A stretch of 64,000 bases of DNA from Balanoglossus misakiensis (taxonomy: Eukaryota; Animalia; Hemichordata): NCBI GenBank assembly GCA_040954595.2, contig CM082588.2, forward strand, positions 8,664,844 to 8,728,843, read 5' to 3'. The translations under genes and the position numbers were made by a program. Positions 12,701 to 15,700 of this stretch are shown one piece after another (position 1 is the first letter of the stretch; each line of letters opens with the position of its first letter). The notes under the pieces are model-generated. The model saw only the letters and a list, made by a program, of their open reading frames with translations. It was not told where the DNA came from and did not search any database.

Positions 12701-15700
12701 AAAGCCTCCAGAGCTGCCACTTTTTGCATTATTTTCAGGATTTTATTTTCCAACTTAGATTGGTCCATCTAAATGAGCTTACTGATAGGTATACATGAAC
12801 ACCTTATCGATGCCTGATTGTGGCTGTGTGTTGCAGTTTGTACATGCTATATATTAAACGCATGCCGCGCCGATTTAATCATCCTCCATACACACAGTAT
12901 GCAGCTATCATGGTATGCGTCGCCAAGAGATGACAAACTGATGCAAATGCAAGTAATACGGCTTAGTGGTGAGGATTGTAAAGGGTTGGGAATATATCTC
13001 AAGTATTTTACTGTGGGAAAAAATGTGTGAAATTTGGCAGCTATAGGGACTTTAAATTGTTAGCAAACTCTATGATGGCAGTGTTATTCACTACAAGTCT
13101 AGACAGATTCACACAGCAGACCAGAAACTGAGTGACAAATGACACCGTTTTGCCATTCACTCACCATTTCAAACAAAAGTCTAACAAGTTTCTCAGACTC
13201 TCCATGGTATTTGGATGACAATGTAGATGAGCTAACGTTGAAAAATGTCGTTCCACATTCTGTGGCCACTGCTTTGGCCAGCAGCGTTTTGCCCGTGCCA
13301 GGGGGTCCGACCATCATGACTCCCTAGAAATGGAGAACAAAGCAAGAATGAGGGCACATACCATTTCAAAGAGAAGTCGCACCAATTTCTCTGATTCACC
13401 GCGCCACTTGGATGTGAGAGTAGAAGAGGACACATTGAAGAAGGTTGTGCCACATTCAGTTGCTACAGCCTTGGCAAGCAAAGTTTTCCCTGTGCCTGGA
13501 GGGCCCACCATCAGCACTCCCTAGAAGAGTCAAAAATCCACAATTACAATGGACTGGCGAAAACTGTTGACTTTTCAACAATTATGAAAAGTCGAGAGTG
13601 AAAAAACACCACCATAAACACTGAATTATGTCTTACATATTACTTATAATATGTTTGAACGACAGCACAAGAAATGACTTGTTATAAATTTTATAAGACT
13701 ACACAAGAGAATTCTGTCAGATGAAGAGATGGTAGAGCAAAAGAACGTGAACAGCAAAGACTTAGCAAAGCTTGGCATGTGATTTTTAATCTGATTCAGA
13801 GGTAGTGGATAATCACATTCCATAGTCTTATATTTCTGTCAACGAGTTCACAGAGGGGTAAACACAGAGGGCACAAAAGAATGATTGGATGGAAAGATCA
13901 AATCCAACACAAAGTGGACTGAGGAAATGCCTGACTGAGATTTATTTCATTACATGATGATATATCAAAACTTGGTAGATGGTGAATATACAAAAACAGA
14001 AGTAGATGATGATGTCAATTTTTTTTTATATAAGACGACACAAAATTCTCCATGTGTATTTCCTTCAGTCTAATGACATACCTTCCAGGGTCTACGGATA
14101 CCTTTAAAAAAGTCGGGCATGATGAGGGGAAGCACCACAGCTTCTTCAAGTAACCTTTTGGCTTCACCAAGACCAGCTATGTCATCCCTGAAGATTTAAT
14201 TAATATCGATTATTTTATTGGATTCTAATTGTGGACCCGTGATTTGCTGTTACTGCTGTTTTTTTGTCTTGTCTTGTTTGTCGTGTATTGAAAAGGGAGT
14301 GCCACTAAAAATTTATACATTCTATAGTTTCTAAATTTCCTCTTTTGGTAACCTTTCAAAGAAGAGGTGCGGCTTAAGATTAAACCGCGTCTTATAACAA
14401 GAAATTGCATTTGGTACACAAAAGATAATTAAATATAAAACCAAAAGTTACAGCTTATATCGCTCTTCAGAATTGAAATACTTTACCAATGAACATTTGG
14501 GTTCCTTTGAACAATGTCCCTTTCTAGATTCTCCACAAGATCTTTATCGTAACCACTTGGATCGAATTTTTTCTCTTTCTCTTCTCCTTCTGTTGGTGAA
14601 CTACGTTTGTCCTGTTTCACAACCATCAACATAATTTAAAGTCAACACAGAGAAGCATTAAAGGGACAAAGTCTCTCTCTCTCGCTGCCCTTTTTCCAAT
14701 AATTTTGTTTGATACAAGACACCGTTTATTTTATTCTATATGTGGATATATAGTGAATCAACGTTCGACCACACAAAACTTCCATCCCGTTTGTAGGATA
14801 TGAGAGTAAAACTCGCCCAAAATGAATAAATGGTATAGACTGATTAATCATTTTGGCGAGTTTTTCACTCTCGTGTCTACAACAAGTGGGATGGAAGTTG
14901 TGTGTGGTCGAACGATGATTCACTATATATCCAAATGTAGAATAACATAAATGGTGTACATATTGTATCAAAAATAATTAATAGAAAAACGACAGCAAGA
15001 AAGAGACTTTGTCCCTTTAAGATAGCTTTTGAGGTTCGTCATATTTTAAATCACACATTTCTTGGTAAACTCTTATACCCCACATCAAAGTGCAGCAAAC
15101 TAGCACAAGTTACATGCAGGTGTGAAAACGGTCAACTGTTTGACATTGCTGTTTTTACACTCATATAGTACATTGTGTTATTTTTTCAACATCATATATC
15201 ACATCTAAAATCATAATGTATCTCTCTCCACATCAAGTCCAGAAGCTTGTCAAAATCAAATGGCTTGTCGACTTTCTACAATCTCCTAGCTAAGTCTAGG
15301 CCAAGCTAATCCTCTAAACTTTTGTGTCCCATACAAACCTTGTCAGATTTGCCTCCTCTAGCTCTATCTCCTCTTCCCCTCTCCCTCTCTCCTCGTCTAT
15401 CCACATTGCCATAAGATGGTCCAGCTCTGCCTTGATCTCTGCGTCCTTGATCTCGTCCACCACGATGTGCTTGTGCTTTGTGATCTTGGCGGTGGGAGGG
15501 TTCTTTACGTGCACCAGCCCGGTATTGAGGTGAGGGTCTGAGAAGTTTCACAACAGATATACAAGTGAGACATCTTTTCAGTACATGGACATTTAAGAAA
15601 AATTCATTACTACTACTCCATTTATCACTTCACAAATTTTGCAATTATTTTACATTTTACCACGATAGCTGCGTACTGTTTGTATGGAGTCTGATTAAAG

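What the first reader, a model, noticed from the sequence alone, without database searches (positions are those of the whole stretch)
13165..13520. Tandem mutually exclusive exons switch the tubulin-gripping pore loop of katanin p60 (KWR vs KYH)
Seen: two intact 159-nt phase 0-0 exons with canonical splice sites encode the same Walker A to pore loop 1 segment. By my codon comparison, 33 of 53 codons differ synonymously (including a TCC/AGC serine switch), 16 are identical and only 4 differ non-synonymously: L/M before Walker A, and T/S, W/Y, R/H in LTSKWRG vs LSSKYHG. Established: in katanin/spastin/Vps4-type AAA+ enzymes, the K-aromatic-X-G motif of pore loop 1 grips the substrate tail. In katanin it contacts the acidic tubulin C-terminal tail (C. 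elegans MEI-1 has KWRG, vertebrate KATNA1 has KYRG). Inference: the duplication is old, both copies are under purifying selection, and their divergence concentrates on substrate-contact residues. One gene could therefore make two severing enzymes, or mixed hexamers, with different preferences for tubulin tails or glutamylation/glycylation state, for example ciliary versus mitotic. The His variant might also be pH-sensitive. I am not aware of this being described, but cannot search.
Basis: partly seen in the sequence, partly recalled or inferred. Interest (0 to 1): 0.92.

Follow-up and report, generated by a model that had tools for sequence, protein, structure and literature searches.

The report
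Ancient splice switch in katanin's pore
The gene for katanin, the enzyme that cuts microtubules, carries two alternative copies of the exon for its tubulin-gripping loop, one with arginine and one with histidine; the same pair is present in acorn worms, echinoderms, molluscs and a tubeworm, so these animals likely make two differently tuned cutting enzymes from one gene, though no functional difference has been tested.

Summary
Confirmed and extended. Two intact 159-nt exons (13362-13520 KWRG; 13165-13323 KYHG) lie 38 nt apart in an 11-exon katanin p60 gene of a hemichordate (93.6% identical to Ptychodera flava). Synonymous sites are saturated (pS 0.81, pN 0.085). The pair is not local: database isoform pairs differing only inside this exon exist for 15 hemichordate, echinoderm and abalone species, and 10 bivalve/tubeworm gene models hold both copies, Arg copy first. 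Arg-to-His at pore loop 1 (C. elegans R267, called invariant in print) separates the copies in 26 of 26 pairs; Trp/Tyr in only 15. No His form was seen in 115 vertebrate, amphioxus, cnidarian, arthropod or nemertean records. The S. purpuratus reference p60 (O61577) is the His form. The 38-nt spacer with a branch-point motif 13 nt from the donor likely enforces exclusivity. No reads could be laid, and different substrate preference or pH gating is untested. Ten literature searches found no description; three key katanin papers were not readable. Both isoforms already sit unremarked in RefSeq. This scan had not noted it before. A real, ancient, apparently undescribed and directly testable splice switch of a known general kind.

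The parts
13362..13520 (-). Exon 6A: Walker A to pore loop 1, Arg copy (KWRG; W codon 13406-13404, R codon 13403-13401)
   Evidence: 53/53 identical to P. flava isoform X1 exon
13324..13361 (-). 38-nt spacer intron, GT..AG, only yTnAy branch-point candidate with its A at intron nt 13 (13349), then a pyrimidine tract
   Evidence: branch point inferred from consensus
13165..13323 (-). Exon 6B: same segment, His copy (KYHG; Y codon 13209-13207, H codon 13206-13204)
   Evidence: 52/53 identical to P. flava isoform X2 exon
16674..16841 (-). Katanin p60 coding exon 1 (ATG; MIT domain start)
16233..16423 (-). coding exon 2
15339..15537 (-). coding exon 3 (basic linker)
14487..14611 (-). coding exon 4
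14082..14187 (-). coding exon 5, constitutive donor for 6A or 6B
11829..11955 (-). coding exon 7: Walker B and pore loop 2 (His-Glu equal to MEI-1 H307-E308)
11212..11346 (-). coding exon 8 (arginine finger region)
10412..10538 (-). coding exon 9
9788..9986 (-). coding exon 10 with stop; either isoform gives 511 aa

Best explanation
This is a tandem pair of alternative exons in the katanin p60 gene, shared with other hemichordates, echinoderms, molluscs and an annelid and likely inherited from their common ancestor, that likely gives two 511-residue isoforms whose conserved difference, Arg versus His in pore loop 1, is predicted to change how the enzyme grips the acidic tubulin tail. Splicing: exon 5 joins 6A or 6B; the 38-nt spacer puts the likely branch point 13 nt from the 6A donor, too close for both splice sites to be used at once, so 6A-6B joining is blocked sterically (inferred; frame is kept, so decay of double inclusion cannot be the guard). 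Protein: the Arg form is the standard katanin pore (Arg = MEI-1 R267, which bridges to pore loop 2 E308); the His form loses that fixed positive charge, so I predict a weaker, more pH- and glutamylation-dependent grip, in an enzyme that still severs. Shown: exon anatomy, conservation, R/H dichotomy. Supported by database models: one-or-the-other inclusion (about 0.93). Inferred: steric mechanism (0.75), single origin (0.75), functional difference (0.75), its direction (0.35).
For: Anatomy and saturation of synonymous sites with 49/53 amino-acid identity. Isoform pairs differing only inside this exon in 15 species: P. flava, Glandiceps, S. purpuratus, two Lytechinus, Diadema antillarum, two Asterias, Patiria, Acanthaster, Antedon, Anneissia, three Haliotis (for Diadema only the exon itself was compared). 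Ten genome-based models of 7 bivalves and Lamellibrachia hold both copies, all Arg first. R40H in 26 of 26 pairs; next most consistent columns 39 (15), 49 (14), 14 (12). In Mya and Tegillarca both copies share lineage-specific residues yet keep R/H. Spacer also short in unnamed read-through ORFs: 54 nt (P0004, P0123, P0124) and 60 nt (P0007). Near-full-length ORFs on 1.5-4.4 kb contigs, hence spliced, carry one copy only: His in P0135, P0144, P0280, P0385-P0387, Arg in P0153, P0392. Residue 40 maps without gaps to MEI-1 267; R267-E308 bridge and loss of function on mutation quoted in 10.1101/2020.11.25.398420 (passages); X-R-G motif role in PMC8369831 (passages); <50 nt donor-to-branch-point rule in PMC5740500 and PMC7969005 (passages). 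Tree: His copies as one clade not rejected (p 0.50; 0.18 without column 40), ambulacrarian R+H as one clade rejected (p 0.002; 0.001).
Against: No reads were laid; the XP_ isoforms are computed models whose read support I could not see. Ten database models join both exons directly, two of them RefSeq models (Saccostrea, 1748-1751 aa, apparently chimeric), so strict exclusivity is not shown, above all in bivalves with a 60-nt spacer. Only one form was seen for Holothuria and Apostichopus (His, 6 of 6 with the exon), Ridgeia (His), Amphiura, D. setosum, H. asinina, Tubulanus (Arg). Absence in chordates and arthropods needs at least two losses under a single origin. The tree has 53 columns, no strongly supported branch, and outside columns 39-40 same-type and cross-type distances are almost equal (3.76 vs 3.85). 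The 26 pairs are not independent (24 species, four phyla). Spastin severs with Val at this position (PMC2064084, passages), so the residue may matter less than assumed. No assay compares the forms.
Confidence: 0.7

Rival explanations
1. Same splicing switch, but it arose twice, once in Ambulacraria and once in Lophotrochozoa, with a convergent Arg-to-His change in the downstream copy.
For: Two gains are fewer steps than one gain plus losses in chordates and arthropods. PMC8373072 reports ACOX1 duplicated exons arising separately in chordates, echinoderms and molluscs (passage). Little signal outside columns 39-40.
Against: Same exon, same order in all loci with known order, same substitution, short spacer in both groups; AU test rejects an ambulacrarian R+H clade, though on few columns.
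Confidence: 0.2
2. The two isoforms are biochemically near-equivalent; the pair is kept for splicing or expression control and the His is tolerated drift fixed early.
For: Only 3-8 residues differ per pair; holothurian records show His only, vertebrates and arthropods Arg only, so either can serve alone; spastin has Val there.
Against: R/H kept in 26 of 26 pairs while other differences turn over, even where copies look homogenised; Arg is unchanged in all 99 motifs read from vertebrate, amphioxus, cnidarian and arthropod records; mutation of R267 impairs MEI-1 (quoted).
Confidence: 0.15
3. The exons are not strictly exclusive: double inclusion or skipping makes inactive subunits that poison hexamers, and this is the regulated output.
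For: All four combinations keep frame (564, 511, 511, 458 aa). Ten models join both copies; 15 of 62 vertebrate records skip exactly this exon.
Against: 38-nt spacer with branch-point motif at nt 13; among hits every direct join of both copies came from a genome annotation, none from a short transcript contig (7991 candidates scored).
Confidence: 0.08
4. Assembly artefact or decaying pseudo-exon.
For: A bat model (Myotis davidii, P0011) does hold two identical copies, which looks like such an artefact.
Against: 43 nucleotide differences, saturated synonymous sites, intact splice sites, both copies matched 53/53 and 52/53 in P. flava.
Confidence: 0.01

Closest known systems
Katanin p60 (KATNA1/KATNAL1; PDB 6B5C, 5ZQM; C. 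elegans MEI-1, 6UGD; S. purpuratus O61577/NP_999733.1)
   Same: MIT domain, single AAA domain, Vps4_C end, Walker A/B, pore loops; best PDB hits E about 1e-161. The S. purpuratus reference protein carries the His exon and XP_011684099.1 the Arg exon.
   Different: Human and worm structures have Arg only; the papers I could read treat this Arg as invariant and mention no alternative pore-loop exon.
Tandem duplicated mutually exclusive exons (236 human events, PMC8373072; OGDH 4a/4b, PMC7969005; ACOX1)
   Same: Adjacent homologous exons of equal length and phase, ancient, tuning a functional site; OGDH also uses a donor-near branch point in a size-restricted intron.
   Different: Katanin, spastin and VPS4 were not found in that paper's text or in its one held supplement; this pair is absent from sampled vertebrates; it swaps the substrate-gripping loop of an AAA+ motor, with one invariant residue change.
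Muscle myosin heavy chain exon clusters (PMC3912159, search listing only)
   Same: Alternative homologous exons tune a cytoskeletal ATPase motor in invertebrates.
   Different: Many clusters in a different motor family; here a single two-exon switch.
Spastin pore loop 1 (YVG; PMC2064084)
   Same: Same loop, same role in tubulin-tail binding.
   Different: Separate gene, uncharged residue; the His form lies between katanin Arg and spastin Val in charge.

Membership tests
Katanin p60 (KATNA1/KATNAL1) | N-terminal KATNA1 MIT domain, AAA, lid and Vps4_C domains | tested here: met
   Pfam PF21126, PF00004, PF17862, PF09336 above cut-off in P0127 and P0246, which are 93% identical over the full length to the window model; the window model itself was not scanned
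Katanin p60 (KATNA1/KATNAL1) | Closest solved structures are katanin p60, not spastin, fidgetin, Vps4 or p97 | tested here: met
Katanin p60 (KATNA1/KATNAL1) | Pore loop 1 K-aromatic-R-G | tested here: inconclusive
   Met by exon 6A, not by 6B (His); the S. purpuratus reference katanin also has His, so Arg is not strictly defining
Katanin p60 (KATNA1/KATNAL1) | ATP-dependent microtubule severing as a hexamer | not testable with these tools
   Sea urchin p60 severs without p80 (PMC8369831 passage); that this was the O61577 His form is recalled from Hartman et al. 1998, not read
Tandem duplicated mutually exclusive exons | Adjacent homologous exons, same length, phase and canonical splice sites | tested here: met
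Tandem duplicated mutually exclusive exons | Each exon is found alone in mature transcripts | tested here: met
   In relatives only: isoform pairs in 15 species and single-copy ORFs on short transcript-like contigs; no reads for this organism
Tandem duplicated mutually exclusive exons | The two exons are not spliced together | tested here: inconclusive
   38-nt spacer argues for it; ten genome-based models join both; no reads
Tandem duplicated mutually exclusive exons | Enforcing mechanism: donor-to-branch-point distance under 50 nt | tested here: met
   The whole intron is 38 nt; candidate branch A at nt 13. The threshold comes from mammalian work; a distant branch point was not mapped
Tandem duplicated mutually exclusive exons | Enforcing mechanism: competing RNA pairings (docker-selector) | tested here: not met
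   Acceptor regions pair with flanking introns no better than 100 shuffles (19-88 of 100 as strong)
Tandem duplicated mutually exclusive exons | Enforcing mechanism: frameshift and decay on double inclusion | tested here: not met
   Double inclusion keeps frame, 564 aa

The most novel reading that the evidence does not exclude
Since the last common ancestor of protostomes and deuterostomes, one katanin gene has encoded a splice-selected pH- and tubulin-code sensor: the His pore loop gates severing by cytoplasmic pH and tail glutamylation (for example across egg activation or in ciliated larvae), the Arg loop is constitutive, and mixed hexamers grade the activity. The founding sea urchin katanin was the His isoform while all solved structures are the Arg type, so the field has been comparing two different machines; chordates and arthropods lost the His exon.
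Probability: 0.2. Interest if true: 0.88.

Novelty: new variant of a known kind. Interest (0 to 1): 0.72.

Why it matters
How severing enzymes read the tubulin code is an open question, usually approached by mutating pore residues. Here evolution has kept a natural two-state variant of a residue thought invariant, in four phyla, switchable by splicing. It gives a ready experiment (two proteins differing by 3-8 residues, in sea urchin, sea star or oyster with public RNA-seq), adds an ancient exon pair that human-centred catalogues cannot see, and flags that the sea urchin reference katanin differs from the structurally studied ones at a key pore residue.

Tried and rejected
No whole genome is held for this window. 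Sequencing-run search: none was listed, so no reads were laid; this is no evidence on expression. Aligning single window exons to a full-length scaffold gave a meaningless alignment and was not used. Metagenome scan returned 80 loci, best identity 77%, no animal katanin locus; a motif scan of them matched nothing and is uninformative. NG86, LWL85 and YN00 could not give dS because of saturation; proportions were used instead. Inverted repeats near the acceptors were not better than shuffles. AlphaFold models of a double-exon model (P0003) and of the single-exon His control (P0246) were both poor (pLDDT 59, pTM 0.33-0.34): no verdict on whether double inclusion folds. No complex prediction was run, as a katanin homo-oligomer would pass by likeness to solved structures. 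Myotis davidii (identical copies) was dropped before the count of 26; P0013 and P0014 are other kinds of duplication, both Arg. Earlier scan findings: 8 unrelated by sequence, 0 by words. Zehr 2020, Zehr 2017 and Szczesna 2022 are not held.

Full report
Observation. Of 53 codons 16 are identical, 33 synonymous and 4 non-synonymous (L3M, T36S, W39Y, R40H), with 43 nucleotide differences. pS is 0.808 and pN 0.085; 6 of 28 four-fold sites agree. Similarity stops a few bases outside the exons and there is no third copy in the window. This excludes a recent or artefactual duplication.

Gene and organism. Ten further exons between 16841 and 9788 complete an open frame of 511 aa with either exon, 564 aa with both and 458 aa with neither. 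The model is 93.6% identical to Ptychodera flava isoform X1, 87% to Glandiceps and 70% to S. purpuratus, so the window is from an acorn worm related to, but not the same as, the P. flava reference. The P. flava proteins carry the KATNA1 MIT, AAA, lid and Vps4_C families and the best PDB hits are human KATNAL1 and KATNA1.

Conservation of the pair. Of 14 clusters of named hemichordate, echinoderm, mollusc, nemertean and amphioxus proteins opened for isoforms (10; Holothuria, Apostichopus, Amphiura, Diadema), isoform pairs of equal length with one Arg-type and one His-type exon were found for 15 species: two hemichordates, ten echinoderms (echinoids, asteroids, crinoids) and three Haliotis; where whole proteins were compared there were 0 differences outside the exon. 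Ten genome-based models from seven bivalves and the tubeworm Lamellibrachia contain both copies in tandem, always Arg first as here. With the window this makes 26 pairs from 24 species in four phyla, after dropping one bat model with two identical copies. Position 40 is Arg in 26 of 26 first-type copies and His in 26 of 26 second-type copies; position 39 differs in 15 (all 13 ambulacrarian pairs, 2 oyster pairs), 49 in 14, 14 in 12, the rest in 10 or fewer. Species with only one form in the records seen: Holothuria, Apostichopus, Ridgeia (His); Amphiura, D. setosum, H. asinina, Tubulanus, Branchiostoma (Arg). No His form occurred in 62 vertebrate, 6 amphioxus, 8 cnidarian, 37 arthropod or 2 nemertean named records (16 of these lack the motif); a sponge has KWRG. 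A search with a 40-residue His-containing query listed the best 120 of 2715 hits; of 105 new proteins 103 were KYRG and 2 KYHG. These are cluster representatives, not genomes, so absence is provisional.

Is it mutually exclusive? No reads could be laid. In favour: the isoform pairs above (computed RefSeq models; that such models usually rest on RNA-seq, and that NP_ records rest on cDNA, is recalled); near-full-length ORFs on contigs of 1.5-4.4 kb, which must be spliced, carry a single copy, His in six and Trp-Arg in two; and the spacer. It is 38 nt, against 250-1209 nt for the other nine introns, with its only yTnAy motif placing the branch A at nt 13. PMC5740500 and PMC7969005 (passages) give about 50 nt as the least donor-to-branch-point distance for splicing. 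Read-through ORFs from unnamed records show spacers of 54 and 60 nt. Frame-dependent decay and RNA pairing are not supported as guards. Against: ten models join both exons, two of them RefSeq models of 1748-1751 aa named titin- or futsch-like; I take these for prediction errors but cannot show it.

What the switch touches. Exon residue 40 aligns without gaps to C. elegans MEI-1 residue 267, and the pore loop 2 His-Glu (307-308) is conserved in exon 7. A simulation preprint (10.1101/2020.11.25.398420, passages) calls R267 invariant, describes an R267-E308 bridge linking pore loops 1 and 2 and says mutations there cost ATPase and severing activity, citing Zehr 2020, which I could not read; it also reports that this bridge is not part of a larger network. 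A review (PMC8369831, passages) describes the X-R-G motif as the positive surface that recognises tubulin. S. purpuratus NP_999733.1/O61577 has KYHG and XP_011684099.1 has KWRG. Katanin was first purified from sea urchin eggs (PMC6279391, passages) and sea urchin p60 severs on its own; that O61577 is that cloned egg protein is recalled. If so, the His form is active and maternal. Spastin has YVG here (PMC2064084, passages). I therefore predict an active enzyme with a weaker, titratable grip; direction and biological use are inference. The rise in egg pH at fertilisation is recalled knowledge and only a lead.

Age. Same exon, order, substitution and short spacer in Ambulacraria and Lophotrochozoa favour one origin before the protostome-deuterostome split (dated over 670 My in PMC8373072, passage), with losses in chordates and arthropods. 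A 41-row, 53-column tree (17 of the 26 pairs plus 7 single-copy rows) has no strongly supported branch; it does not reject a His clade (p 0.50, or 0.18 without column 40) and rejects an ambulacrarian Arg+His clade (p 0.002, 0.001); distances outside columns 39-40 carry almost no signal. Convergence remains possible, as reported for ACOX1 in the same phyla. Mya and Tegillarca copies share private residues, which suggests gene conversion that spared R/H.

What is known. Ten full-text searches (1 to 30 papers listed each, of up to 506 matches) showed no paper describing alternative pore-loop exons in katanin; the search for katanin with KYRG, KWRG or KYHG gave one unrelated paper. KATNA1, KATNAL1, SPAST and VPS4 were not found in the one held supplement of the human tandem-exon catalogue (I did not check that the file holds its Table S1). 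Two further reviews had no passage on splicing; 10.64898/2026.05.28.728271, 10.64898/2026.08.01.742241, PMC10136189 and PMC13370650 were seen as passages only. Zehr 2017, Zehr 2020 and Szczesna 2022 were not held, Hartman 1998 and Shin 2019 not looked up; their alignments or supplements may note the sea urchin His. The isoforms themselves are public as unremarked X1/X2 models.

Verdict. A real and deeply conserved exon pair of a known general kind, in a place where none seems to have been described: the substrate-gripping loop of a microtubule-severing AAA+ motor. Function is untested. Interest 0.72; new variant of a known kind.

Noticed in passing
window 10583-10600, minus strand: An 18-nt exon-like piece with AG/GT flanks, 44 nt upstream of exon 9, repeats that exon's acceptor and first bases and would add six residues in frame; the P. 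flava protein shows no such insert. Possible microexon or small duplication.
   Followed up: partly
vertebrate proteins P0162, P0186, P0193 and 12 others: 15 of 62 vertebrate katanin records skip exactly this 53-aa exon, lacking Walker A and pore loop 1; the exon borders are conserved and it may remain a cassette exon after loss of the second copy, or these are annotation artefacts.
   Followed up: no
P0129, P0130, P0385-P0388: All six holothurian proteins with the exon have His; sea cucumbers may use or keep only the His exon.
   Followed up: partly
P0012/P0126 (Mya), P0008/P0009 (Tegillarca): Both exon copies share lineage-specific residues, suggesting gene conversion; the Mya Arg copy is unusually diverged (8 differences, including Glu to Val after the motif).
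   Followed up: partly
window 28797-29117 and onward to about 61900, plus strand: A bHLH exon (PF00010) and later PAS-like exons that look like an aryl hydrocarbon receptor gene (name recalled).
   Followed up: partly
window 2-6623, plus strand: Exons of another gene (ORFs 2468-2779, 4386-5210) without Pfam match; converges on the katanin 3' end.
   Followed up: no
window about 8220-8400, 10790-11140, 14660-15020, 16560-16650, 30970-31190, 44790-44970, 55800-56900, 60117-60374, 63120-63360: Many copies of one interspersed repeat with inverted ends (MITE-like), three of them inside katanin introns, none in the introns next to the exon pair as far as seen.
   Followed up: no
P0011 (Myotis davidii): KATNA1 model with two identical copies of this exon, probably an assembly duplication.
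   Followed up: no
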